A program made the translations under genes and the position numbers. Below, piece by piece: positions 26,125 through 55,258 of a stretch of DNA of 64,000 bases. Within the stretch, counting starts at the first letter, position 1. Each line of letters opens with the position of its first letter. The stretch lies in the sequence record PZ338877.1. One strand, written 5' to 3'. The DNA comes from a phage. The notes beneath the pieces were generated by a model, which had not been told where the DNA came from, did no database searches, and was given only the letters and a program-made list of their open reading frames with translations.

Positions 26125-26148
26125 AAGGCTCCCGTAAGAAGGAGCCTT
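26125..26148. terminator. hairpin terminator between convergent genes
   Basis: 8-bp stem AAGGCTCC/GGAGCCTT; A-tract on plus side gives U-tract for the minus-strand gene. Confidence 0.5.
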
Positions 26149-26153
26149 AAACT

Positions 26154-26525
26154 TTACTTTTCAGTATTCTTTGTGTTCTTCTCAGTAATAGCTTGGAGGG
26201 CTGATACTGATTGAGCCAGATTGTTAACACTATCAGAGAATTTATCAAGAGTCTTAGTAAGTTTTGCGTTCTCACCCTTAACATTCTCTAACTGGACTTT
26301 CTGGTTCTCCATCCCTAGCTGAAGCAGCCTCATATCAGACTGTAAATCACGAATAGCTGAATAATTACTTTTGGAATAATTATCTAACTGCTGTAACTTT
26401 GTTGTGATAGACACTTCTTGCTTACCATCCGAGACTTGCATGGTGGTATACATCCCAATAACACTAAAAATACCAACTACAATTGCACCAATATTATTTT
26501 TAAAAGCTTCCTCTAGCCACTTCAT
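26154..26525 (-). CDS. membrane-anchored coiled-coil protein (candidate lysis/spanin-like or fibre-assembly)
   Basis: 123 aa; N-terminal TM IGAIVVGIFSVIGMYTTM then coiled-coil region. Confidence 0.4.
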   Translation of the reverse strand: MKWLEEAFKNNIGAIVVGIFSVIGMYTTMQVSDGKQEVSITTKLQQLDNYSKSNYSAIRDLQSDMRLLQLGMENQKVQLENVKGENAKLTKTLDKFSDSVNNLAQSVSALQAITEKNTKNTEK

Positions 26526-26719
26526 TTATTCTCCCCCTTAAAAGCTTTTTCTAAGTTATCTACGAACTCATCATCAATAGGTGTGTCTGTCTTACTCGCA
26601 AGGTATCTTGCAAGCCTAAAGAACACTTTCTCAATCATGTATTCACTTAGAAGGGATAAAATGAGTTTCCAGAAGAAGCTACCTAGATTTTTTAGAAGAA
26701 TTGCTAGGATTGTAGGCAT
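26522..26719 (-). CDS. small membrane protein
   Basis: 65 aa, hydrophobic N-terminus; ATGA overlap with downstream gene. Confidence 0.35.
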   Translation of the reverse strand: MPTILAILLKNLGSFFWKLILSLLSEYMIEKVFFRLARYLASKTDTPIDDEFVDNLEKAFKGENK

Positions 26720-26798: not shown

Positions 26799-29144
26799 TT
26801 AAGCAGTTCTTACCCAAGCCATTAACTTGTAGAACTGGTTAGTAACACTAAATGCTGAACCAGAACCTGTACCCCCAGTGTTACCACTTACTGTGTGACT
26901 GTGAGCACCAATACCAACTGAGTGAGCGTGGTTACCAGCAGACGCAGCAGTACCACTTACAGAGTGGGTGTGAGCACCGTTAGCATCAGTGTAACCCGGC
27001 CCTGAACCAACGTATGCACCACCACCACCAGAATAGTGCTGTGAGTTCTGACCAATCCACGAAATAGAGTGGTTGTGGTTACCAGCAGATGAAGTAGAGC
27101 CACTTACAGAGTGACTGTGAGCACCAGTTGTGTTAGTGTTTTTTGTTCCGTAGTCAAAAGATGAAGTGGTAGCAGAAAAACTGTGAGTGTGTGAAGGCAA
27201 GTTCCCAACAGCTAACGTCACAGAGTCTGAACCACCAGTTGTAGCAACATCTGAACCGTTTGCTGCTGCAATTCTGATAGTTCTACCAACACCATTGTTG
27301 AGGTACGTCCAAGTTAGACCAGGCAGTGCTGTATTAGGGTCAACATTACTGTTAAACCATGTCACAATACCCACTGGATAGATTTTATTAAGGTCTGTAG
27401 AATCACTTACTGCCTGTGCAATCTTCTGGTCAGTTTCAGTTTTAGTGTATGCACCAAGCTCTGAAGGGGTTGGTTTAAATGCCGTTGAATACAACTGTGC
27501 AGTTCCAACATATTCTCCATCTGACCCATAAGCATATGTGAAGACATCAAGACCTTTAGACCCATATGTAAAAGAAATACCTCTAGCATGAGCAATACCA
27601 GCAGAATGTGCTACATGGATGGCTAAATCTTTCATACCCTGCTCAATATCGTTGTTTCTTACAAACCCTGAATAGTCTTTATTGAATGATGCTGTGTCAT
27701 CCAACCTATTAGTTGTCCTTACCATTAAAGATTGGTTTAACAGTTTTGTTTTTAAGAAATATCTAGCATCAATGTTAGTCCAATCTGAAGGCTGAACTTG
27801 ACCAATGATTTTCACATTTTTATTCAACAAGAAAACATCTTGCATATAAATCGTAGTTGCAGTGCTGCTGTTATGGATAATAAGTCTTTCTGGGTTGGAT
27901 GATTCCCCATTCCCAATGTACCACCTTCTAACACCATCAGCATTATGACCAGCAAAGTATAGCTCTCCGTCTTGTGTAGTATTCTTTAGCTGTAACAATG
28001 AGCCATTCTGATTAATAATCTGTGCAGACCTGAAAGTGTTCACATCACTTAACTTAGCAAGATTACTCAAAGTTCCTGCTGGGATGTATCTAGCGTCAAT
28101 GTTAGTCCAATCTGAAGGCTGAACTTGACCAGTGATTTTCACAGTCTTAGTAGTGGTAATCACATTTGACAAAGAGATAGTTGTACTCGTGGTGTAGTTA
28201 TGTAGGTTGACTACAGAATCAGAGTTATCAGTCCCTAAGTAGAACTTGTTTGTCCCATCAGCTTTCTGACCAAGCAGGTATAGCCCAGTTGCATCAGAGG
28301 CATTTTTAATAACTAGCACAGCATTATCTCTAGTGATATTGAACTCTCCTACAAAATTATTAATACCCCTGAAGGTGTTATTACCAACTAGCTGTGCAAA
28401 TCTCTGATTAGCTGCCGTCTGTGTGAAGTATCTAGCATCTAAGTTAGACCAATCAGAAGGTTGAACTTGACCAGTAATCTGGAGAGACTTGTTCACAGTG
28501 ATTAAGCTATCCAAAATAGCTACATATGCACCAGATTTAACATTTTTTAAAACAAGATTGTCTGTACCTTTGTTATCATTACCTAGATACCACCTGTTAG
28601 TACCATCTGCATCTTGACCGCGAATATACAGCGGCATTCCTTGTGTAATATTCTTAACAATAATAGTTTCATTATCAGATAGAATATTTTGAGTACCTCT
28701 AAAGGTGTTACTTGCAGCCAATCTTGAGTATCTTGCATCATTCTCTTCATTAGTTCTCATCCCAAGCTCATTAGGGCTTGGCTTATTCAGAGTATGATAA
28801 ACAGTTGCCGACCTTGAAGCATCTGCAATAGTTAGTTTAAGGCCATTTGCGTTAATTTTAAAAGTCTTTAAAACATCCCCGATATTAATCTCAGAAGAGC
28901 CTGTTGGGTCAAAGACTGCCTTACCACCATAAAGTAACTTAACAATCCCTAAGTCACCCGTCATAGTACTACCAGCAATCTGGACAAATCTCTCAAGCTT
29001 AAAAGACGCTAAGAAGTCTTGATAGGTCATTCGACGGTCTTCATCACCTAGCATTTCAGGTCTCTTTTTAACCCTGACATGGAGAAGGTCGTCTGAACGA
29101 ATTGTATCAATTGAGTTTAATTCACTCAACTTGTAATCTGCCAT
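26799..29144 (-). CDS. long tail fibre with HxH-rich distal tip
   Basis: about 782 aa from internal ATG ([10 protein letters not shown]) with AAGAGG RBS; three tandem ~110-aa repeats each ending QVQPSDW(S/T)N(L/I)DARY; C-terminal Gly/Ser/His-rich HxH repeats. Confidence 0.7.
27700..28750 (-). repeat. three tandem ~330-bp intragenic repeats in tail fibre gene
   Basis: near-identical DNA blocks TATCTAGC(A/G)TC(A/T)A(T/A)GTTAG(T/A)CCAATC(T/A)GAAGG(C/T)TGAACTTGACC at 27762, 28087, 28429. Confidence 0.8.
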
Positions 29145-29190
29145 TATAAATTTTCCTCTTAAAAGGGGCTTTATAGCCCCTGTAAAGAAA

Positions 29191-30339
29191 TTAAGCTGTT
29201 CTCTGCCATACATACAATACGAAGGATGGCTGTTCAACACTAAATGCTTGACCAGAACCAGTTGTACCAGTTGTACCAGAGTGTGAATGCTCACCTGCTC
29301 CGGTTACTGTTACTGTTGCTGAGTGGTTGTGGGAACCAATTGCAACAGTATGGCTGTGAGCACCAATACCAACCGTGTGATTATGCGCACCAATTGCTAC
29401 AGAGTGAGTGTGGTTGTTAGCTGTTGTCAATGTAGCTCTTGGGTCATAGCTTGCCCCCTCAACCGATAAACCTCTCCAGCCACCATCAGCATAGCCACGG
29501 TTAATGAATGTTGTTTGTGTTAAACCAGCAGAACTTGTTGTTCTGTTGCCATAGTCATAAGTAGATACGGTCTTGGTTCCGTAGTCAAACGTGGTAGTTC
29601 CTTTAGTACCATAATCAAAAGCACTGATAGAGGCCGTTGCACCATGAGTGTGACCACCACCAGTGACGTACACTGAGTGGGTATGTGCAGGGATGTTATT
29701 AACCGTCAGTGCAGTAGTCTGTGAACCAAACGTTGAACCAACTGGCCTAGAATCACTATCATAACCTACAAGTGCTCTCCCTTTTGAGACTAACTCCCAA
29801 GTACCTCCACAAATTAAATATGTAGAGGGGTTTGCAGGATTCATAGAGAGATGGATAGTACCTACTGGATAAGAAGCCTGAACAGCCTTGTACAAGTTAT
29901 TTACTGCTCTTGCTGTAGCATACTTATCTGCATCTTCATTATAAAGGTTAGATGTTGTCCAGTTCTGGACATTACTTAAACCAACCTGTGCCTTAGTTGT
30001 ATTGTGTGGGTTGCTCTTGTCATTAATATGCTCTTGAATAAGGCTATTAACCTCTTCTGAAGACATAATCTGGAGATTTTTTCTTGCCTCAGCTACATTA
30101 ACAATATCTGATAAGTTATTTGCAGCGACTAACTGAAGAGCATTAATAACATTATCTAAACCAATTTGTGTCTTAGTAACACCATGAGGGTTATTTCTTA
30201 GGCTTGAGTGTGGAGCAAGTAATTGCTCAAGAGTACATCTCTTATCCTCAATACCCTGCTTAAGATGGAAGATATCACTAAGGTCAATTGGTAAGGCTGC
30301 TTGAGGCAAGGCACTAATTTGAATTTCACCTACTGCCAT
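29191..30339 (-). CDS. tail fibre / receptor-binding protein with HxH-rich tip
   Basis: 382 aa; C-terminal HTHSV...GAHNHTV...GAHSHTV repeats and C-terminal end homologous to long fibre. Confidence 0.65.
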
Positions 30340-30341
30340 TA

Positions 30342-38360
<8,019 letters not shown>

Positions 38361-50061: not shown

Positions 50062-50137
50062 TGGAGAATCCGAAGGGACTCGAACCCTTATAAACCTGTT
50101 TTGCAGACAGGCACATATCCATTTCTGTCACGGATTC
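50062..50137 (-). tRNA. tRNA-Cys (anticodon GCA)
   Basis: minus-strand cloverleaf: T-arm AAGGG-ACTCGAA-CCCTT, anticodon arm CCTGT-TTTGCAG-ACAGG, acceptor CGGATTC, CCA encoded. Confidence 0.8.
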
Positions 50138-50141
50138 AAAT

Positions 50142-50234
50142 TGGAGGAAGATACCAGACTTGAACTGGTACACCGATTTCTCAGCTACTGGCAGTTTAGC
50201 AAACTGCTCCCTTACCTTTTAGGGTTAATCTTCC
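50142..50234 (-). tRNA. tRNA-Ser (anticodon GCU), class II
   Basis: T-arm ACCAG-ACTTGAA-CTGGT, anticodon arm GCAGT-TTAGCAA-ACTGC, 21-nt variable arm, 7-bp acceptor, CCA encoded. Confidence 0.75.
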
Positions 50235-50235
50235 A

Positions 50236-51033
50236 TTATTTCTGTAATGCGTTCTTCATTTCTGGTGTTGCAATAGTGTCAATCACACCAGTTTTACAAG
50301 CATCATCAAACCAGTCTGGTAAGATACCTGCTAAGAACCCATTGATATTCGTTTTAAGGTACTCTGCAATAAGGGCAGCTTCTTCTTCAATCATCTGCAC
50401 AACTTCATCTGCATAAGCTGTAATCTTCGAGATACCTTCATTAATCTTACTAACAGCTTGATTAGCTAAATCAGAAATAGTATCAAGACCTTTATCAATA
50501 GCATCCTGTAAGTCGCTTAATACACCATTAACGCCATCTAGTGTGCTGTTAATTGTATCCATAGCTTTTTGACCATACTCTGTAGCAACACCCATAATAC
50601 CACTAAATGGTGTACAACCAACTTGCTCTCCTGCTGCACCCATAACATTGGAGTAGCCTTTTGCTACCTGCATACGTGAGGAAAACTCATCAATAGATTT
50701 TTGACCATAATCTGTCAATGTTTTAGTAGTTGCTGTAGTGCTTGTCAGACTCGTTGTAAAGCTATTAAGCAGAACTGTTGTAAGTCCAGCAGCAATGAGC
50801 TTATCCTTCATTGTAGGGTCTGTTACAGAGCTAATAGAGCTTACAAGTGATGTAGAGGCAGCTACGGTTCCACCTAGAACTGCTGCACCAGTAATAAGGG
50901 GATTAGAAAACCCTCTACCGGTTTTTAAGAGATTAAAAATCTCCTTACCTTGTTCTGTCATCTCTTTCATTAAGCACCTTTGAAATTGGTAGTCCAGTGG
51001 GATTTGAACCCTCTTCTCATGTTTTTCAGACAC
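50236..51033 (-). CDS. hypothetical Ser/Thr/Ala-rich protein embedded in tRNA array
   Basis: 265 aa ORF between tRNA-Ser and tRNA-Phe. Confidence 0.45.
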   Translation of the reverse strand: MSEKHEKRVQIPLDYQFQRCLMKEMTEQGKEIFNLLKTGRGFSNPLITGAAVLGGTVAASTSLVSSISSVTDPTMKDKLIAAGLTTVLLNSFTTSLTSTTATTKTLTDYGQKSIDEFSSRMQVAKGYSNVMGAAGEQVGCTPFSGIMGVATEYGQKAMDTINSTLDGVNGVLSDLQDAIDKGLDTISDLANQAVSKINEGISKITAYADEVVQMIEEEAALIAEYLKTNINGFLAGILPDWFDDACKTGVIDTIATPEMKNALQK

Positions 51034-51063
51034 GCGCTTTAACCATATAAGCTACTTGGACTA
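50987..51063 (-). tRNA. tRNA-Phe (anticodon GAA)
   Basis: T-arm GTGGG-ATTTGAA-CCCTC, anticodon arm CATGT-TTTTCAG-ACACG; ends approximate. Confidence 0.65.
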
Positions 51064-51068
51064 TAAAT

Positions 51069-51144
51069 TGGGGTGACCTACGGGATTTGAACCCGTATAG
51101 ACCATGTTCACAGCATGGGTCATTACCATTTATGATAAGGCCAC
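51069..51144 (-). tRNA. tRNA-His (anticodon GUG)
   Basis: T-arm ACGGG-ATTTGAA-CCCGT, anticodon arm CCATG-TTCACAG-CATGG, D-stem TCAT/ATGA, CCA encoded. Confidence 0.8.
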
Positions 51145-51175
51145 ATTTAAGGACTCTCGTAAGAATCCTTAGAAG

Positions 51176-51251
51176 TGGCAGCGGCATAAGGATTTGAACC
51201 TTAATAAGACAGCTTCAGAGACTGCTGCATTGCCAGTTATGCTATACCGCT
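51176..51251 (-). tRNA. tRNA-Gln (anticodon CUG)
   Basis: T-arm TAAGG-ATTTGAA-CCTTA, anticodon loop TTCAGAG (rc CTCTGAA), D-stem GCAT/ATGC, CCA encoded. Confidence 0.75.
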
Positions 51252-51256
51252 AAATT

Positions 51257-51335
51257 TGGTACTCCATATCGGATTCGAACCGATACATAACACAGATTTT
51301 AAGTCTGGCCTCTCTGCCAATTGGAGTAATGGAGC
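51257..51335 (-). tRNA. tRNA with Leu-type anticodon UAA, short variable region
   Basis: T-arm ATCGG-ATTCGAA-CCGAT, anticodon loop TTTTAAG (rc CTTAAAA), 7-bp acceptor; only 79 nt. Confidence 0.6.
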
Positions 51336-51337
51336 AT

Positions 51338-51413
51338 TGGCGGGGGATGTTGGAATTGAACCAACTTCTTCGATTTCAAAGACCGAGGTTTTAACCTTGT
51401 AAACTAATCCCCT
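51338..51413 (-). tRNA. tRNA-Gln (anticodon UUG)
   Basis: T-arm GTTGG-AATTGAA-CCAAC, anticodon arm TCGAT-TTCAAAG-ACCGA, D-stem GTTT/AAAC, CCA encoded. Confidence 0.75.
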
Positions 51414-51421
51414 TTAAATCT

Positions 51422-51979
51422 TTACTTTCTTAGTGGATGAATAAAGAATGCCAACATAACTCTTTCCCTTGAGAATGCTCTTTCTTCTGGGACAACACTT
51501 TTAAGTTTCCATCCAACATAAATTCTCCAGTAGAATTGTTTACCAAAGACTTTAATTGATGGGATAAAGGCGAATAATCCCCAAGCATTACTGTTCCACA
51601 TTAGGAGATAACCTGTCTGATTATCTTCAGGGTCAGAACTTACGTTGATATTACCTTTCCACTTAGTAACATCTTTTACATCTCTTCCTAACACATGGTA
51701 AGAGAAGTTATAAGCTTTGTTTCTCCAGAGCCATCCAACTCTCTGCAAATAGACACCCAGCTTACCAATCTTTCTAATCTTAGCCCATCTTTTAATGTGA
51801 CCTTCATCACCATCAATTGGGTTGTCATATGTCTCCATCCATCTGAATCCGAAAGGTAGATGTCCTTTCTTCTCACTATAGAATGGAACTACAAAAGGTG
51901 CTAAGATAACTGCTAAGGTTGCTGCCAATGGGTCTAACAAAGCTAGGAAAATCCATGAAGCATACTTCAAATATCTCAT
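51422..51979 (-). CDS. membrane protein embedded in tRNA array
   Basis: 185 aa; N-terminal hydrophobic helices (ASWIFLALLDPLAATLAVILAPFVVPF). Confidence 0.45.
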   Translation of the reverse strand: MRYLKYASWIFLALLDPLAATLAVILAPFVVPFYSEKKGHLPFGFRWMETYDNPIDGDEGHIKRWAKIRKIGKLGVYLQRVGWLWRNKAYNFSYHVLGRDVKDVTKWKGNINVSSDPEDNQTGYLLMWNSNAWGLFAFIPSIKVFGKQFYWRIYVGWKLKSVVPEERAFSRERVMLAFFIHPLRK

Positions 51980-51998
51980 CTAAATAGCCTCTTTAAAT

Positions 51999-52074
51999 TG
52001 GTGCAGGATAAGGGATTCGAACCCCTATTAACAGCTTCGTAGACTGCTGCTCTATCCATTTGAACTAATCCTGC
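51999..52074 (-). tRNA. tRNA-Arg (anticodon ACG)
   Basis: T-arm AAGGG-ATTCGAA-CCCCT, anticodon loop TTCGTAG (rc CTACGAA), acceptor GCAGGAT/ATCCTGC, CCA encoded. Confidence 0.8.
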
Positions 52075-52188
52075 TTACCTACAAGAACACCATACAGTTT
52101 TTCACAATCTTTGTTTTTACGTCTGTTTAGGTATGACGCTCTAAACTTTTTTGCTATTGACTTATCACTCATAGTGCTCTCCCAAAAT

Positions 52189-52266
52189 TGGTGTTCCAAG
52201 ACGGATTCGAACCGTCACTAGTACAAGGTTTGAGCTTGCATCCTCTGCCAATTGGGATATTGGAAC
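52189..52266 (-). tRNA. tRNA with Leu-type anticodon CAA, class I-like (78 nt)
   Basis: T-arm GACGG-ATTCGAA-CCGTC, anticodon arm ACAAG-GTTTGAG-CTTGC, perfect acceptor GTTCCAA/TTGGAAC, A73, CCA encoded. Confidence 0.65.
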
Positions 52267-52267
52267 A

Positions 52268-52342
52268 TGGTGCTCACTAAAGGACTTGAACCTTTTTCTT
52301 CATCTTGTAAGGGTGATGTTTTACCATATAAACTAAGCGAGT
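52268..52342 (-). tRNA. tRNA-Val (anticodon UAC)
   Basis: T-arm AAAGG-ACTTGAA-CCTTT, anticodon loop TTGTAAG (rc CTTACAA), D-stem GTTT/AAAC. Confidence 0.7.
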
Positions 52343-52437
52343 ATGAAAGAGGTCTGAAGTTGTGCCGCTCACTCAACTCCGTGGAATTTGTTACGGTCTT
52401 CAGTTGACACCAGCGGTCTTTCACTTGACCTCTGAAT
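52343..52437 (-). ncRNA. structured non-tRNA element inside tRNA array (candidate small RNA)
   Basis: 95 nt between tRNA-Val and tRNA-Thr; closing 7-bp helix AGAGGUC/GACCUCU plus internal inverted repeats; lacks T-loop consensus; contains a GGTCTTCAG motif copy. Confidence 0.3.
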
Positions 52438-52513
52438 TGGTGCTCCCACAAGGATTCGAACCCTGATAAGTTGCTTACAAGGCAACCGTAATAGCCAATT
52501 ATACGATAGGAGC
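52438..52513 (-). tRNA. tRNA-Thr (anticodon UGU)
   Basis: T-arm CAAGG-ATTCGAA-CCCTG, perfect anticodon stem GTTGC/GCAAC with loop TTACAAG. Confidence 0.8.
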
Positions 52514-52520
52514 ATTAATT

Positions 52521-52595
52521 TGGAGCATCCAGAGGGAATCGAACCCTCAACCTCAGTTTGGAAGACTGTAATTTTCCCGTTTAAACTATGGATGC
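52521..52595 (-). tRNA. tRNA-Gly (anticodon UCC)
   Basis: T-arm GAGGG-AATCGAA-CCCTC, anticodon loop TTGGAAG, perfect acceptor GCATCCA/TGGATGC. Confidence 0.8.
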
Positions 52596-52601
52596 ACTAA
52601 T

Positions 52602-52677
52602 TGGTGGAGTCACTGAGAATTGAACTCAGTTCCCAAGTTTGCAAAACTCGAATTTTAACCATATAAACTATGACCCC
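52602..52677 (-). tRNA. tRNA-Ala (anticodon UGC)
   Basis: T-arm CTGAG-AATTGAA-CTCAG, anticodon arm CAAGT-TTGCAAA-ACTCG. Confidence 0.7.
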
Positions 52678-52683
52678 AATGTT

Positions 52684-52759
52684 TGGTACAGGTGGAGGGA
52701 ATTGAACCCATCGTCTTACTGATTAAGAGTCAGCCGCATAACCATTTTGCTACACCTGC
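52684..52759 (-). tRNA. tRNA-Lys (anticodon CUU)
   Basis: anticodon stem CTGA/TCAG with loop TTAAGAG; acceptor ACAGGTG/CACCTGC; paralogous to tRNA at 53998-54073. Confidence 0.7.
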
Positions 52760-52766
52760 ATTGATT

Positions 52767-52844
52767 TGGTAGGAGACAAGGGATTCGAACCCTCAAACAC
52801 CAACTTCTAAGGATGGTAGGTTTACCAATTACCGTCAATCTCCC
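52767..52844 (-). tRNA. tRNA with Leu-type anticodon UAG, class I-like (78 nt)
   Basis: T-arm AAGGG-ATTCGAA-CCCTC, anticodon arm CCAAC-TTCTAAG-GATGG, A73, CCA encoded. Confidence 0.6.
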
Positions 52845-53097
52845 ATTAAATCTTTTTAGAGAACTTCTAAGAACCTAAGCAACAAGGTTCCACAACAAGC
52901 TGTAATAACCTTAGAAGCCCTCTAAAAAGACCTAAATATGTCTTTGCATAGTCTTGTTTAATCCGGTGACTAGAACCTTTGGAGAGCTTGATATTATCTC
53001 TTCTCCGTGACACCTACTAGGTGCTTTATCAGTGTGTACGACAATACACGAGGGATAAACCGAAAATGCGAGCAAGCATGACGGTGTAAATCTTATT

Positions 53098-53188
53098 AGG
53101 CGGTAAGTAAAGGAGTCGAACCCTCACCGTATCTCTACAGTGGCAACAGTTTTCAAGACTGTTTGGCTGCCATTAGCCGCTACCTACC
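53098..53188 (-). tRNA. tRNA-Ser (anticodon UGA), class II
   Basis: T-arm AAAGG-AGTCGAA-CCCTC, perfect anticodon stem ACAGT/ACTGT with loop TTTCAAG, long variable arm. Confidence 0.7.
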
Positions 53189-53201
53189 CCTAATAAGACT
53201 T

Positions 53202-53284
53202 TGGCATGGGACGGAGGAGTTGAACCCCTTTGAAACGGTTTTGGAGGCCGTTGCTCATGCCTTAGAGTCTTAACATCGTCCCAC
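53202..53284 (-). tRNA. atypical tRNA-Trp-like gene (anticodon core CCA, 9-nt anticodon loop)
   Basis: T-arm GGAGG-AGTTGAA-CCCCT, acceptor ATGGGAC/GTCCCAC, CCA encoded; anticodon stem AACGG/CCGTT encloses 9 nt (tRNA sense CCUCCAAAA); D region about 8 nt longer than canonical. Confidence 0.5.
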
Positions 53285-53426
53285 ACTATAATTCGAAGCT
53301 TACCGTATTTTCGCAACACTGTAAAGCCCCTTCTCAGATTATTTACATGTTCTGGAAAACATGAGATACAGACCACCTCCTTACACGGAGACCCGATAAG
53401 GTCGTCTAAGCAATCTGCTAACTATT

Positions 53427-53503
53427 TGGCACACCCTACAGGATTCGAACCTGTAACTAACGATTTAGAAGACCGTTGCTCTATCCAATTGAACTAAGGG
53501 TGC
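53427..53503 (-). tRNA. tRNA-Arg (anticodon UCU)
   Basis: T-arm ACAGG-ATTCGAA-CCTGT, anticodon arm ACGAT-TTAGAAG-ACCGT, D-stem GCTC/GAAC. Confidence 0.8.
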
Positions 53504-53839
53504 ATTAATCTTTAAAGACTCTCTTAGAAAGCCCTTAAAGATGCCCACCTTATTAATCATACCGTGGGCGAGTACGCCAAATTCTTTGATGAGGGATTGG
53601 AAGACCTCACTGGTGTTTAGCCTATCAAGCTACTGCCAGAAAAACATTGTCGTTTGCATTTATTTTAAATTTGCAAAATAGACGCTACGCAACGAAAACT
53701 ATTCAGAATATGTACAACAAATTTCCCCACATTGTGTTACGTCTAACGCTCATGTATTGGTGTTTGAATTATACATATTGTGAAGTATTTTAGTTACTAT
53801 AAAGTGGTCACATCTTAATGTCAACAACTTTATTGAAAT

Positions 53840-53915
53840 TGGTACTGGTAGGTGGAATCGAACCACCGATGTTCCCTTATCAGGGGAGTGTTATAACCTT
53901 CTTAACTATACCAGC
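53840..53915 (-). tRNA. tRNA-Ile (anticodon GAU)
   Basis: T-arm GGTGG-AATCGAA-CCACC, anticodon loop TTATCAG, acceptor ACTGGTA/TACCAGC. Confidence 0.8.
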
Positions 53916-53916
53916 T

Positions 53917-53993
53917 TGGAGGTTCAGATGGGAATCGAACCCACATTCATAGGGCTTATGAGACCCCTGCATTACCTTATCTGCGACTGAACC
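53917..53993 (-). tRNA. tRNA with CAU anticodon (Met/fMet; three G-C pairs in anticodon stem)
   Basis: T-arm ATGGG-AATCGAA-CCCAC, anticodon arm AGGGC-TTATGAG-ACCCC, perfect acceptor GGTTCAG/CTGAACC. Confidence 0.75.
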
Positions 53994-53997
53994 ATAT

Positions 53998-54073
53998 TGG
54001 TAGAAGTGGAGGGATTCGAACCCATCGCCTGTCAGATTAAAAGTCTGCCGCATCACCATTCTGCTACACTTCC
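53998..54073 (-). tRNA. tRNA-Lys (anticodon UUU)
   Basis: anticodon stem CAGA/TCTG with loop TTAAAAG; acceptor AGAAGTG/CACTTCC. Confidence 0.7.
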
Positions 54074-54275
54074 ATTAAATTACCTTTGCAGTAACCTACG
54101 CAGACCTTGCTAAAGGGTCTGTAGAGTCATTTCCTCTTAAGCTAATCTAGAATCATGCTAAGGAAATTCATCGGCACTCATGGGACGACATAATTAGCCA
54201 CATAAGCTACTGCAAAGATAATTACCAGACCGTTGTTTATCATCTTAAGTGCTACCATTACACCAACTCGACATC

Positions 54276-54321
54276 TGCCGAGTGAAGGAATCGAACCTTC
54301 GCCTTTTCTTTACCGGAGAAA
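54276..54321 (-). pseudogene. tRNA-like fragment (3' half only)
   Basis: intact T-arm GAAGG-AATCGAA-CCTTC and 3' acceptor strand plus a 5-7-5 hairpin, but no complementary 5' acceptor strand; anticodon loop has C at position 33. Confidence 0.35.
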
Positions 54322-54336
54322 TAGATTGTTTAAGTT

Positions 54337-54360
54337 TTGCTGTAAACGGTCTTCTGTAAA
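54337..54360. repeat. short repeat family copy (TTGCTGTAAACGGTCTTCTGTAAA)
   Basis: one of 4-5 copies of TTGCTG(Y)A(W)(W)(Y)GGTCTTCTG within tRNA array. Confidence 0.7.
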
Positions 54361-54423
54361 TTTGTTGAGCCAGACCAAGTTTTAAATTTTTCAAAATTAA
54401 ATTGGCTTGAAATTTTAAGTAAC

Positions 54424-54444
54424 TTGCTGTATTTGGTCTTCTGC
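54424..54444. repeat. short repeat family copy (TTGCTGTATTTGGTCTTCTGC)
   Basis: same motif family. Confidence 0.7.
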
Positions 54445-54530
54445 TCCTTTAAAGAATACTCGTAAGAACTCTTTAAGGGAGGGGCTAAATAGCCCTCTCA
54501 AAACATCATCTTGAAATACTTATTATAATT

Positions 54531-54608
54531 TGGCGGTTACGAAGGGATTTGAACCCTCATCATCTCCCGTGACAGGGGAGTATTTTAACCAGATTAAACT
54601 ACATAACC
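54531..54608 (-). tRNA. tRNA-Asp (anticodon GUC)
   Basis: T-arm AAGGG-ATTTGAA-CCCTC, perfect anticodon stem CTCCC/GGGAG with loop GTGACAG. Confidence 0.8.
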
Positions 54609-54614
54609 TTTATT

Positions 54615-54702
54615 TGGTGTGCCGTGTAGGAGTCGAACCTACCGAGTCTCAATGACAAGGGATTTACAGTCCCCACCGCTACCATCTACGGGATAACGAC
54701 AC
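54615..54702 (-). tRNA. tRNA-Tyr (anticodon GUA), class II
   Basis: T-arm GTAGG-AGTCGAA-CCTAC, anticodon arm AGGGA-TTTACAG-TCCCC, 15-nt variable arm. Confidence 0.75.
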
Positions 54703-54773
54703 ATTTTATTATTCTATTCAGGCTAAGGACTTGCACCTTACAAATCGGTGAGCAATCGCTTCTCTCCTAAATT

Positions 54774-54850
54774 TGGCGGTTAGTCAGGGATTCGAACCCT
54801 GTGCCATTCGCTTAACAGGCGACCGCACATACCTTATGTGCTTCCTAACC
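54774..54850 (-). tRNA. tRNA-Asn (anticodon GUU)
   Basis: T-arm CAGGG-ATTCGAA-CCCTG, anticodon loop TTAACAG, D-stem GCAC/GTGC. Confidence 0.7.
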
Positions 54851-54902
54851 TTAATACATTGCCAGACCGTGTTTTTTTCTTTTATCCGCAAAAAGTAGTT
54901 TG

Positions 54903-54927
54903 TTGCTGCATACGGTCTTCTGCAAAA
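54903..54927. repeat. short repeat family copy (TTGCTGCATACGGTCTTCTGCAAA)
   Basis: same motif family, immediately 3' of tRNA at 54929. Confidence 0.7.
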
Positions 54928-54928
54928 T

Positions 54929-55005
54929 TGGAGGCGGGTGCAGGAGTCGAACCTGCCGATACCATGCTAATGAGACATGTGAGACGCCCTTTCTCTATAC
55001 CCGCA
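54929..55005 (-). tRNA. tRNA with CAU anticodon (second copy; Met or Ile2-type)
   Basis: T-arm GCAGG-AGTCGAA-CCTGC, anticodon arm CATGC-TAATGAG-ACATG; 1:72 unpaired; U at position 37. Confidence 0.6.
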
Positions 55006-55069
55006 ATTCTTAATGACCAGACCAAATCTCTTCTTTGTCCGATTTACCTTCAGATGAATAAGATTAAGT

Positions 55070-55094
55070 TTGCTGTAATTGGTCTTCTGTCAAA
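55070..55094. repeat. short repeat family copy (TTGCTGTAATTGGTCTTCTGTCAAA)
   Basis: same motif family, immediately 3' of tRNA-Glu. Confidence 0.7.
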
Positions 55095-55096
55095 AC

Positions 55097-55174
55097 TGGC
55101 GTTCCAGAAGGGATTTGAACCCTCAAATATCCACTTTGAAAGAGTGGTGACTTTACCATTTTGTCTACTGGAAC
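55097..55174 (-). tRNA. tRNA-Glu (anticodon UUC)
   Basis: T-arm AAGGG-ATTTGAA-CCCTC, perfect anticodon stem CCACT/AGTGG with loop TTGAAAG, perfect acceptor. Confidence 0.8.
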
Positions 55175-55181
55175 ATTAATT

Positions 55182-55258
55182 TGGTCTCTGTTGGAGGACT
55201 TGAACCTCCGGCCTTACCGCCCCAAACGGAACGCTCTACCAAGCTGAGCTAAACAGAG
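55182..55258 (-). tRNA. tRNA-Pro (anticodon UGG)
   Basis: T-arm GGAGG-ACTTGAA-CCTCC, anticodon loop CCCCAAA, D-stem GCTC/GAGC, perfect acceptor. Confidence 0.8.

What the first reader, a model, noticed from the sequence alone, without database searches (positions are those of the whole stretch)
26799..30339. Two paralogous tail fibres with His-rich HxH tips; the longer has three tandem 110-aa repeats
Both fibre proteins end in Gly/Ser/His-rich segments with repeated HxH (HTHSV, HNHS, HSHTV) and a shared C-terminal end (...GSG.AFSV...W.RTA), like the metal-binding fibre tips of T4 gp37/gp12. The 782-aa fibre has three tandem repeats each closing with QVQPSDW(S/T)N(L/I)DARY, encoded by about 330-bp DNA repeats. 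Such repeats and paralogous tips are substrates for host-range change by recombination.
Basis: partly seen in the sequence, partly recalled or inferred. Interest (0 to 1): 0.5.

Follow-up and report, generated by a model that had tools for sequence, protein, structure and literature searches.

The report
Felix O1-type short and long tail fibres
These are the ordinary short and long tail-fibre genes of a Felix O1-like (Felixounavirus) phage, whose T4 gp37-like histidine-rich receptor-binding tips and repeated shaft domains have already been described, including by cryo-EM of a close relative.

Summary
Both end in Gly/Ser/Thr/His-rich segments, with 7 and 6 HxH motifs, and share the ending ...GSG.AFSV...W.RTA. 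The long fibre has three tandem repeats of 109-114 aa, each closing QVQPSDW(S/T)N(L/I)DARY.

The window is a Felixounavirus. The genes match Bas63 gp26 (short fibre) and gp27 (long fibre), and Felix O1 gp76/gp77. Both tips match the T4 gp37 tip structure 2XGF by sequence (E about 1e-14), and the HxH motifs align with T4's iron-binding motifs. The 2025 Bas63 cryo-EM paper (PMC12609058) already describes this architecture.

Three corrections:
- The HxH motifs line the needle shaft. The receptor-contacting head lies between them, and the shared C-terminal end folds back to the collar.
- The number of 110-aa repeats is essentially fixed: three in 119 of 120 homologues and in four GenBank relatives.
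- What varies is the small head cassette (at least 27 types), the module after repeat 3, and the HxH count in the short fibre.

Some head cassettes are shared between long and short fibres and with T4 gp37, so that part of the recombination idea stands. Verdict: already known, low interest.

The parts
29191..30339 (-). Short tail fibre gene (382 aa), orthologue of Bas63 gp26 and Felix O1 gp76. It has an N-terminal baseplate-binding region, helix-turn motifs, and a gp37-like tip.
   Evidence: ORF. PHROG 2097 tail fiber, E 2.7e-128. Pfam Gp10_C, E 1.6e-17. 2XGF, E 9.8e-15. 99% identical homologue P0121. Gene order matches Bas63.
26799..29144 (-). Long tail fibre gene (781 aa plus stop), orthologue of Bas63 gp27 and Felix O1 gp77.
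   Evidence: ORF and ribosome-binding site. PHROG 4277 over its full length, 1204 bits. Pfam PF20744 three times, E 1.6e-49. Homologues 69-97% identical.
28428..28769 (-). Long-fibre repeat 1 (aa 126-239), ending [14 protein letters not shown]
28086..28427 (-). Long-fibre repeat 2 (aa 240-353), ending [14 protein letters not shown]
   Evidence: Alone it hits PF20744 with E 1.9e-13.
27759..28085 (-). Long-fibre repeat 3 (aa 354-462), ending [14 protein letters not shown]
27390..27758 (-). Fifth, non-repeat beta-rich module plus helical linker (aa 463-585). Relatives carry alternative versions of this module.
   Evidence: No sequence homology to repeats 1-3. Predicted beta strands, then a helix at 568-581, in a low-confidence model. 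Replaced by unrelated modules in momo-type (843 aa) and Suspvirus (733 aa) long fibres.
27192..27389 (-). Long-fibre collar domain (aa 586-651)
   Evidence: Nearly invariant among 120 homologues. Aligns to the short-fibre collar and the T4 gp37 collar.
26889..27191 (-). Long-fibre needle with six HxH motifs (aa 652-752), enclosing the head
   Evidence: 2XGF alignment covers aa 650-761. Pfam Phage_fiber PF03335.
26976..27065 (-). Long-fibre head cassette (about aa 694-723, [29 protein letters not shown]), the predicted receptor-contacting tip
   Evidence: Lowest conservation in the protein, 0.31. This head type occurs in 32 of 121 long fibres. It is found mainly in phages isolated on E. coli K-12.
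26802..26888 (-). Long-fibre C-terminal segment (aa 753-781, ...[22 protein letters not shown]), predicted to return to the collar
   Evidence: The last 12 residues are identical in all 120 homologues. Aligns with the C-terminal end of T4 gp37. Topology as described for Bas63 and T4.
29686..29871 (-). Short-fibre collar domain (aa 157-218)
   Evidence: Pfam Gp10_C. Matches the gp10 structures 2FKK and 5HX2 and the gp37 structure 2XGF. This is the confident part of the AF2 model, and Foldseek matches it to gp10.
29281..29685 (-). Short-fibre needle with seven HxH motifs and three FDYGTK-type repeats (aa 219-353), enclosing the head
29413..29556 (-). Short-fibre head region (about aa 262-309), the predicted receptor-contacting tip
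   Evidence: Conservation 0.10-0.35 among 70 homologues. This head type occurs in 12 of 63 short fibres.
29321..29412 (-). 27-bp tandem repeat (3.4 copies) encoding 9-aa His-box units ([27 protein letters not shown]) of the returning needle strand
   Evidence: Tandem Repeats Finder, family D1, translation
30342..30644 (-). 100-aa protein, counterpart of Bas63 gp25, the platform on which the long fibre attaches
   Evidence: PHROG 4141. Identified by gene order and by the sizes of the neighbouring wedge proteins in the Bas63 paper.

Best explanation
These are the two baseplate fibres of a Felixounavirus, a Felix O1-like myophage.

Each protein is expected to trimerise. The N-terminus docks on the baseplate: the short fibre on a wedge protein, and the long fibre on the 100-aa platform protein encoded just upstream.

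The long-fibre shaft is a chain of beta-rich domains separated by short helical linkers. Three of these domains are recognisable sequence repeats belonging to Pfam PF20744.

Both fibres end in a T4 gp37-type receptor-binding tip. This has a collar, then a six-stranded needle in which each HxH motif from the three chains forms an octahedral metal site. That predicts six sites in the long fibre and seven in the short one. A small head sits at the far end, where the chain turns back, so the conserved C-terminal strand ends at the collar. The head is the part predicted to contact the receptor. For this genus the receptor is lipopolysaccharide, mainly its core.

Host range is diversified by exchange of the head cassette at the conserved His-box flanks, by replacement of the module after repeat 3, and by changes in His-box number in the short fibre. 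It is not diversified by changes in the number of 110-aa repeats.

Shown here: gene identity, homology to 2XGF, motif alignment, and the conservation pattern. Inferred: trimer formation, metal binding, hairpin topology and the receptor.
For: - Genus and synteny: megablast gives 95.7% identity to phages CL1 and C600M2, and 229 related records, almost all of Escherichia, Salmonella and Shigella phages including named Felixounavirus entries. Gene order matches Bas63 gp23 to gp27.
- Family hits: PHROG 4277 and 2097, Pfam PF20744 three times, Phage_fiber and Gp10_C.
- Both tips hit the T4 gp37 tip 2XGF.
- In a three-way alignment, the long fibre's six HxH sit on T4 H883, 915, 929, 966, 980 and 989. 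Five of the short fibre's seven sit on T4 H883, 966, 980, 989 and 998.
- HxH counts lie far above shuffled expectation.
- Conservation maps show an invariant collar and C-terminal strand around a hypervariable centre in both fibres.
- There are at least 27 head types. Two occur in both long and short fibres.
- In phage JH2 both fibres carry the same cassette, 77.5% identical over 275 nt.
- The long-fibre heads of EC106 and VpaE1, and T4 gp37 itself, each match a T4-like head cassette taken from a short-fibre homologue at 74-83% over 92 aa.
- Published descriptions: Bas63 cryo-EM (PMC12609058), Felix O1 genome (PMC3185647), VpaE1 (PMC4690856), and LPS-core dependence (PMC8594841).
Against: - Monomer AlphaFold2 models are poor in the needle and head (pLDDT below 50). 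The hairpin topology and the metal sites therefore rest on homology, not on a structure computed here.
- Only three of the five shaft domains reported for Bas63 are detectable as sequence repeats.
- No counterpart of the available N-terminal 132 aa of T4 gp38, the chaperone of gp37, was found in the window (best tblastn E 0.072). Assembly may therefore differ from T4.
- The receptor for these particular head types is not established.
Confidence: 0.9

Rival explanations
1. One reading: the 110-aa tandem repeats and the paralogous tips are active recombination substrates, so fibre length (repeat number) and tips change among relatives and drive host-range change.
For: - One metagenomic homologue, P0089 (680 aa), has an exact deletion of repeat 2 at the conserved junction.
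- Repeats 2 and 3 share a 36-nt exact match at the junction.
- Head cassettes are shared between long and short fibres.
Against: - There are three repeats in 119 of 120 homologues, and in Shy, typing phage 11, Si3 and the Suspvirus mistaenkt.
- The Bas63 authors report no variation in repeat number across the genus.
- The repeat DNA is only about 58% identical.
- P0089 comes from a single 2.4-kb short-read contig and could be an assembly collapse.
- Within this window the two genes share at most 20 exact nucleotides. Direct-repeat recombination between them would also delete most of the long-fibre gene.
Confidence: 0.1
2. The 382-aa protein is not a fibre. It would instead be a baseplate pin or wedge protein like T4 gp10, as some records annotate its homologues ('baseplate wedge subunit and tail pin').
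For: - Pfam Gp10_C, E 1.6e-17.
- PDB sequence hits to the gp10 structures 2FKK and 5HX2.
- The best Foldseek matches are T4-like gp10 chains.
- The mistaenkt record annotates the homologue this way.
Against: - The gp10 similarity is confined to the collar domain (about aa 139-227).
- The rest of the tip aligns with the gp37 needle and head and carries seven HxH motifs.
- Cryo-EM of Bas63 shows the orthologue as a 430-A fibre attached to a wedge protein.
Confidence: 0.05
3. The His-rich segments are low-complexity Gly/Ser/His linkers without a specific metal-binding role.
For: The composition is biased, with S, G, T, H and A making up about 65-75%. No metal analysis is available.
Against: - The motifs are position-specific. 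H652, 654, 676, 678, 739, 741, 748 and 750 are invariant in the 30-sequence alignment, and H690, 692, 725 and 727 are at least 90% conserved.
- They align one to one with the HxH motifs of T4 gp37, which coordinate iron in the needle.
Confidence: 0.03

Closest known systems
Escherichia phage JohannRWettstein (Bas63) gp27 long tail fibre and gp26 short tail fibre (cryo-EM, PMC12609058)
   Same: - Same genus, gene order and protein sizes.
- Both have a gp37-like collar, needle and head tip.
- The short fibre has seven HxH and the long fibre six.
- The long-fibre shaft consists of repeated beta domains with helical linkers.
- The region is 94.9% identical in DNA over 78% of its length.
   Different: The long-fibre head cassette differs. 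Bas63 has an HHxH at H692, H693 and H695, which matches the most common head type found here (62 of 121 long fibres). This window has the [15 protein letters not shown] type. Bas63 is reported with five structural beta-helix domains, whereas only three are sequence repeats here.
Salmonella phage Felix O1 gp77 and gp76 (PMC3185647), and E. coli phage VpaE1 gp75 and gp74 (PMC4690856)
   Same: They are orthologous fibre pairs. Their C-terminal homology to T4 gp37 was noted in 2010 and 2015. They also show a conserved N-terminus with a variable C-terminus and middle.
   Different: The Felix O1 long-fibre tip is 68.5% identical to this one over the last 139 aa. VpaE1 carries a T4-like head, which this window lacks.
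T4 gp37 receptor-binding tip (PDB 2XGF)
   Same: The collar, the HxH needle and the C-terminal strand are homologous (E about 1e-14). The HxH motifs align, and there is a FDYGTK motif on the outgoing strand.
   Different: - T4 gp37 is the distal subunit of a four-protein fibre and needs the chaperone gp38. Here the tip is fused to a single-chain fibre, and nothing similar to the available part of gp38 was found in the window.
- The head sequences are unrelated to T4's.
- The long fibre has six HxH, not seven.
T4 gp34 rod region (PDB 5NXH, 4UXE)
   Same: It has repeated beta-rich domains separated by short helical turns. The Bas63 authors report this resemblance. Foldseek returns weak matches, probability 0.95-0.97.
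   Different: No sequence similarity was detected. The model used here has low confidence and the TM-scores are very low. T4 gp37 does not hit Pfam PF20744.
T4 gp10 and gp12 C-terminal collar domains
   Same: The short-fibre collar matches Pfam Gp10_C and the gp10 structures.
   Different: No gp12 chain was matched by sequence at E<=1. From my own knowledge, gp12 has a single metal site rather than a multi-site needle.

Membership tests
Felixounavirus long tail fibre (PHROG 4277; Bas63 gp27, Felix O1 gp77) | Full-length sequence homology | tested here: met
   PHROG 4277 matched over aa 2-782 of the 782-aa translation used in that call (one codon upstream of the ATG) against profile positions 1-780 of 780, 1204 bits. 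120 homologues are 69-97% identical, mostly at 100% coverage.
Felixounavirus long tail fibre (PHROG 4277; Bas63 gp27, Felix O1 gp77) | Three PF20744 repeats in the shaft | tested here: met
   Pfam PF20744 matched in three stretches, E 1.6e-49. Three repeats in 119 of 120 homologues.
Felixounavirus long tail fibre (PHROG 4277; Bas63 gp27, Felix O1 gp77) | Position in the baseplate and fibre gene block: wedge 2, wedge 1, platform, short fibre, long fibre | tested here: met
   ORF order and sizes are 489, 285, 100, 382 and 781 aa. They match Bas63 gp23 to gp27 and the annotated relatives.
Felixounavirus short tail fibre (PHROG 2097; Bas63 gp26, Felix O1 gp76) | Sequence homology across the whole protein, and seven HxH motifs as in Bas63 | tested here: met
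   PHROG 2097, E 2.7e-128. P0121 is 99% identical. Seven HxH, compared with seven reported for the Bas63 short fibre.
T4 gp37-type receptor-binding tip (PDB 2XGF) | Sequence homology of the needle, and of the collar, to 2XGF | tested here: met
   Short fibre: E 9.8e-15, aa 146-352 against chain positions 18-229, covering collar and needle. Long fibre: E 8.6e-14, aa 650-761, needle only. The long-fibre collar is linked through the short fibre (34% identity). Its own Pfam Gp10_C score of 20.5 bits is below the 27-bit cut-off.
T4 gp37-type receptor-binding tip (PDB 2XGF) | HxH motifs at the positions of T4's metal-binding HxH | tested here: met
   Three-way MAFFT alignment. The histidines are invariant or at least 90% conserved among homologues.
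T4 gp37-type receptor-binding tip (PDB 2XGF) | Hairpin topology: head in the middle of the tip sequence, C-terminus returning to the collar, six-stranded needle | tested here: inconclusive
   The conservation pattern fits: conserved flanks around a hypervariable centre. The monomer AF2 models have pLDDT below 50 in this region. The topology is reported for the Bas63 orthologues.
T4 gp37-type receptor-binding tip (PDB 2XGF) | Bound metal ions (iron in T4) and a trimeric state | not testable with these tools
   This needs a trimer model with ions, or an experiment.
T4 gp37-type receptor-binding tip (PDB 2XGF) | A dedicated gp38-type chaperone gene downstream | tested here: not met
   The downstream ORFs are a 65-aa protein and a 123-aa protein, both in PHROGs of unknown function; relatives annotate the 123-aa one as holin. 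tblastn of the available N-terminal 132 aa of T4 gp38 against the window gives a best E of 0.072. This is a feature of the T4 system rather than of the fold.
T4 gp34-like rod of repeated beta-helix domains | Structural similarity of the repeats to 5NXH | tested here: inconclusive
   Foldseek matches 4UXE and 5NXH at E about 2e-4 and probability 0.95-0.97, but TM-scores are at most 0.15 and the model's mean pLDDT is 47.
T4 gp12 short tail fibre | Sequence homology to gp12 | tested here: not met
   No gp12 chain appears among the PDB hits at E<=1 for either protein.

The most novel reading that the evidence does not exclude
The conserved GxHxH His boxes act as recombination linkers that move a head cassette of about 30-45 aa (the segment between the flanking HxH motifs). 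The cassette would move between homologous fibres of different phages, between the two paralogous fibres of one genome, and between Ounavirinae and T-even phages.

Evidence that fits this reading:
- In JH2 the long and short fibres share a cassette that is 77.5% identical over 275 nt, while the rest of the two genes does not align.
- The long-fibre heads of EC106 and VpaE1 belong to the same cassette type as the T4 gp37 head.
- The short fibre's HxH count ranges from 6 to 11 among homologues, which could tune needle length.
- A Suspvirus long fibre lacks the head altogether and has four HxH.

His-box-mediated swapping is established for T-even gp37 (from my own knowledge). I did not find the paralogue-to-paralogue conversion described in the Felixounavirus papers I read.
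Probability: 0.45. Interest if true: 0.3.

Novelty: already known. Interest (0 to 1): 0.12.

Why it matters
It matters little as a discovery. The two-fibre architecture, the gp37-like HxH tips and the repeated shaft domains are already published for this genus.

The practical value is in annotation and engineering. The receptor-contacting element should be placed at the inter-HxH head, at long-fibre aa about 694-723 and short-fibre aa about 262-309, and not at the C-terminus. The natural cassette boundaries at the His boxes show where heads could be swapped to retarget Felix O1-like therapeutic or diagnostic phages. The comparison also shows that the number of shaft repeats is not a variable worth screening.

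Tried and rejected
- Tandem Repeats Finder did not report the ~330-bp repeats because they are too diverged. It found only the 27-bp His-box array.
- An HMM of the three repeats, and hhalign profiles, found no fourth or fifth sequence repeat in aa 30-129 or 463-585. Only the short KP(S/T)PSE(L/I)G linker motif is shared.
- The AlphaFold2 monomer models had mean pLDDT 61.9 (short fibre) and 47.3 (long fibre). The needle and head are unreliable, so I did not analyse metal-site geometry.
- Foldseek on these models gave only weak matches: gp10 for the short fibre, and the Mu fibre and gp34 for the long fibre.
- The PDB sequence search returned no Bas63 or Sf14 fibre chains. The Bas63 paper says the fibre density was unsuitable for modelling rotamers.
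- Wholesale exchange of complete tips between the long and short fibres is rejected. All long-long tip comparisons score at least 185 bits, and the best long-short comparison scores 171 bits. Only the central cassette is shared.
- The apparent 3.1-kb long-fibre match in phage Shy was the short and long fibres joined by the search, not an extra repeat.
- tblastn of T4 gp38 against the window found nothing.
- A paper search for 'His box' together with 'tail fiber' and 'recombination' found nothing in the held library. The T4 tip paper and the T4 fibre review were not held.
Full report
**What is there**

The region holds two adjacent genes on the minus strand. One is 29191-30339 and encodes 382 aa. 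The other is an ORF open from a GTG at 29294. Its real start is the ATG at 29144, which follows an AAGAGGA ribosome-binding site, and every homologue begins MADYKLSEL.

The genes lie 46 nt apart. Two small ORFs of 65 and 123 aa follow, and then a strong terminator-like hairpin at 26125-26148. The fibres therefore sit near the end of a late structural operon, two small ORFs before its terminator.

**Checking the observation**

The long fibre has six HxH motifs (H652, 676, 690, 725, 739, 748) and the short fibre has seven (H219, 230, 310, 319, 328, 337, 351). No shuffle out of 20,000 of either whole protein reaches these counts. The tips are rich in Ser, Gly, Thr and His. The two C-terminal regions are 34% identical (E 1e-16) and share the ending GSG.AFSV...W.RTA.

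The long fibre contains three tandem repeats, at aa 126-239, 240-353 and 354-462. Each closes with QVQPSDW(S/T)N(L/I)DARY. They are 37-45% identical to one another, and hhalign gives about 100% probability for each pair.

The DNA periods are 342 and 327 nt. The DNA copies are only about 58% identical, apart from a conserved junction of about 63 nt that holds a 36-nt exact match between repeats 2 and 3. That divergence explains why Tandem Repeats Finder did not report them.

**Identity**

The DNA is 95.7% identical to Escherichia phages CL1 and C600M2. In all, 229 phage records match; almost all are Escherichia, Salmonella and Shigella phages, including named Felixounavirus entries.

The long fibre matches PHROG 4277 over its full length. 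It also matches Pfam PF20744 ('gp37_trimer') three times, Phage_fiber (the His-box repeat) and, weakly, Gp10_C. The short fibre matches PHROG 2097 and Pfam Gp10_C.

The upstream genes encode proteins of 489, 285 and 100 aa. They correspond to Bas63 wedge 2 (gp23), wedge 1 (gp24) and the long-fibre platform (gp25). The two fibres are therefore the orthologues of Bas63 gp26 (short fibre) and gp27 (long fibre).

**Relation to T4**

Against all PDB sequences, both tips hit the T4 gp37 receptor-binding tip 2XGF, with E 8.6e-14 and 9.8e-15. The short-fibre collar also hits gp10. No gp12 chain is matched.

In a three-way alignment with T4 gp37, the long fibre's six HxH fall on T4 H883, 915, 929, 966, 980 and 989. 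Five of the short fibre's seven fall on T4 H883, 966, 980, 989 and 998, and the other two (at 230 and 351) are extra. The shared ending aligns with the C-terminal strand of gp37.

According to the Bas63 paper, the T4 motifs coordinate iron along a six-stranded needle. The chain doubles back at a small head that contacts the receptor, and then returns to the collar. The HxH motifs therefore line the needle shaft. The distal extremity is the segment between them, and the C-terminal end is proximal.

**What varies among relatives**

Among 120 long-fibre homologues, the following are almost invariant: the N-terminal 140 aa, the collar (aa 581-660), and the returning needle with the C-terminal strand (aa 741-781). 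The repeat cores are variable (0.4-0.8 identity to the window residue), but the repeat junctions are conserved. The head, around aa 701-720, is the least conserved part at 0.31. The short fibre shows the same pattern, with the head at 0.10-0.35.

Repeat number is three in 119 of 120 homologues. It is also three in Shy, O157 typing phage 11, Si3 and the Suspvirus mistaenkt. The Bas63 authors reached the same conclusion from AlphaFold 3 models of all Felixounavirus long fibres.

The one exception is P0089 (680 aa), which has an exact deletion of repeat 2. It comes from a single 2.4-kb short-read contig, so I cannot tell a real deletion from an assembly collapse.

Three other things do vary:
- **The head cassette.** There are at least 27 types among 184 tips.
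- **The module between repeat 3 and the collar.** It is replaced by an unrelated module of about 130 aa in momo-type fibres of 842-848 aa, and by a third version in Suspvirus.
- **The HxH count in the short fibre.** It ranges from 6 to 11 among homologues, with 9 the most common. In this window part of the returning needle strand is encoded by a 27-bp tandem array at 29321-29412.

**Recombination**

Whole tips of the long and short fibres form separate classes, but the central cassette crosses between them.
- The GYINGAQPNGTRGDWD head type occurs in one long fibre and three short fibres. An aligned long/short pair is near-identical through the central ~90 aa, while the two collars share about 30%.
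- In phage JH2 both fibres of the same genome carry this cassette, 77.5% identical over 275 nt.
- A T4-like head type occurs in eight long and two short fibres. The long-fibre heads of EC106 and VpaE1, and T4 gp37 itself, each match a cassette of this type taken from a short-fibre homologue at 74-83% over 92 aa.

In this window, however, the two genes carry different heads. They share at most 20 exact nucleotides and two short patches of 79-86% identity.

**Structure prediction**

The monomer AlphaFold2 models were of limited use.
- In the short-fibre model the collar was confident, but the needle and head were below pLDDT 50. Foldseek matched T4-like gp10 chains.
- The long-fibre model had a mean pLDDT of 47. 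It showed beta-rich cores for repeats 1-3 and for the following module, with helices between them. It gave weak matches to the Mu tail fibre and to the T4 gp34 rod.

This agrees with the published comparison to gp34 but does not test it independently. By sequence, only three of the five shaft domains reported for Bas63 are repeats.

**Prior knowledge**

- C-terminal homology of both Felix O1 fibres to T4 gp37 was reported in 2010.
- VpaE1 (2015) reported the same homology, plus a conserved N-terminus with a variable middle and C-terminus.
- The 2025 Bas63 cryo-EM paper describes the collar, needle and head tips. It reports seven and six di-histidine motifs, the beta-helix repeats, their invariant number, and the variability of both the tips and the repeats.
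- For this genus the receptor is lipopolysaccharide. Bas63 depends completely on an intact LPS core.

**Verdict**

The finding is real and correctly read in outline, but it describes a known architecture. The repeat-number hypothesis is not supported. The tip-exchange hypothesis is supported at the level of the head cassette. Novelty: already known. Interest: low.

Noticed in passing
window 50062-55258: A cluster of 26 tRNA genes, all on the minus strand, including tRNA-His(GTG). Felix O1 is reported to have 22 tRNAs.
   Followed up: no
window 29321-29412: A 27-bp tandem repeat (3.4 copies) inside the short-fibre gene encodes 9-aa His-box units. The total HxH count of short-fibre homologues ranges from 6 to 11, so copy-number variation here, rather than in the 110-aa repeats, may be what changes among relatives.
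   Followed up: partly
window 29542-29622 (short fibre, about aa 240-266): Three FDYGTK-type units of about 9-11 aa ([28 protein letters not shown]) lie on the outgoing needle strand. T4 gp37 and most relatives have two units followed by two more HxH motifs, which this short fibre lacks.
   Followed up: partly
window 29971-30195 (short fibre aa 49-64 and 108-123): An NPHxxTKxQ(I/V)GLxNV motif occurs twice in the short-fibre N-terminal half. [quoted passage not shown]
   Followed up: no
L002 1501-3702 (Escherichia phage mistaenkt, Suspvirus): Its 733-aa long fibre has a tip with only four HxH motifs and no head segment (...[30 protein letters not shown]...). This looks like a deletion between His boxes. 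It also has a third version of the module after repeat 3.
   Followed up: partly
P0016, P0094; L004 3255-5801 (O157 typing phage 11): Long fibres of 842-848 aa replace aa about 479-548 of the standard fibre with an unrelated module of about 130 aa (YYNKSSADNRYLRVRSTGFNT...). Repeats 1-3 and the tip are kept.
   Followed up: partly
L008 (Logan SRR8427688 contig, 2362 nt): A 680-aa long fibre lacks exactly repeat 2. I could not tell a real deletion from an assembly collapse at the conserved repeat junction.
   Followed up: partly
window 26154-26719 and 26125-26148: Two small minus-strand ORFs follow the long fibre. One is 65 aa (PHROG 402). The other is 123 aa (PHROG 4038) with a hydrophobic N-terminal stretch that I read as a likely membrane segment, and relatives annotate it as holin. 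A strong hairpin terminator follows, facing the end of the thymidylate synthase gene on the other strand. No tail-fibre chaperone gene is adjacent.
   Followed up: partly
search results: Records named 'Campylobacter phage A132' (MG065664.1) carry Felixounavirus-type fibre genes, and a 'Staphylococcus' phage record also appears in the organism tallies. These are probably mislabelled or contaminated entries. JGI names two long-fibre homologues (P0025, P0090) 'protein tyrosine phosphatase superfamily (DUF442)', which looks like a misannotation.
   Followed up: no
hits H115-H123 (Aeromonas T4-like phages): Long-fibre aa about 456-565 (the end of repeat 3 plus the following module) is 36-40% identical to the 'small distal tail fiber subunit' (gp36-like) of Aeromonas T4-like phages. 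This fits the view that the single-chain Felix O1-type fibre is a contracted fusion of T4 fibre parts.
   Followed up: no
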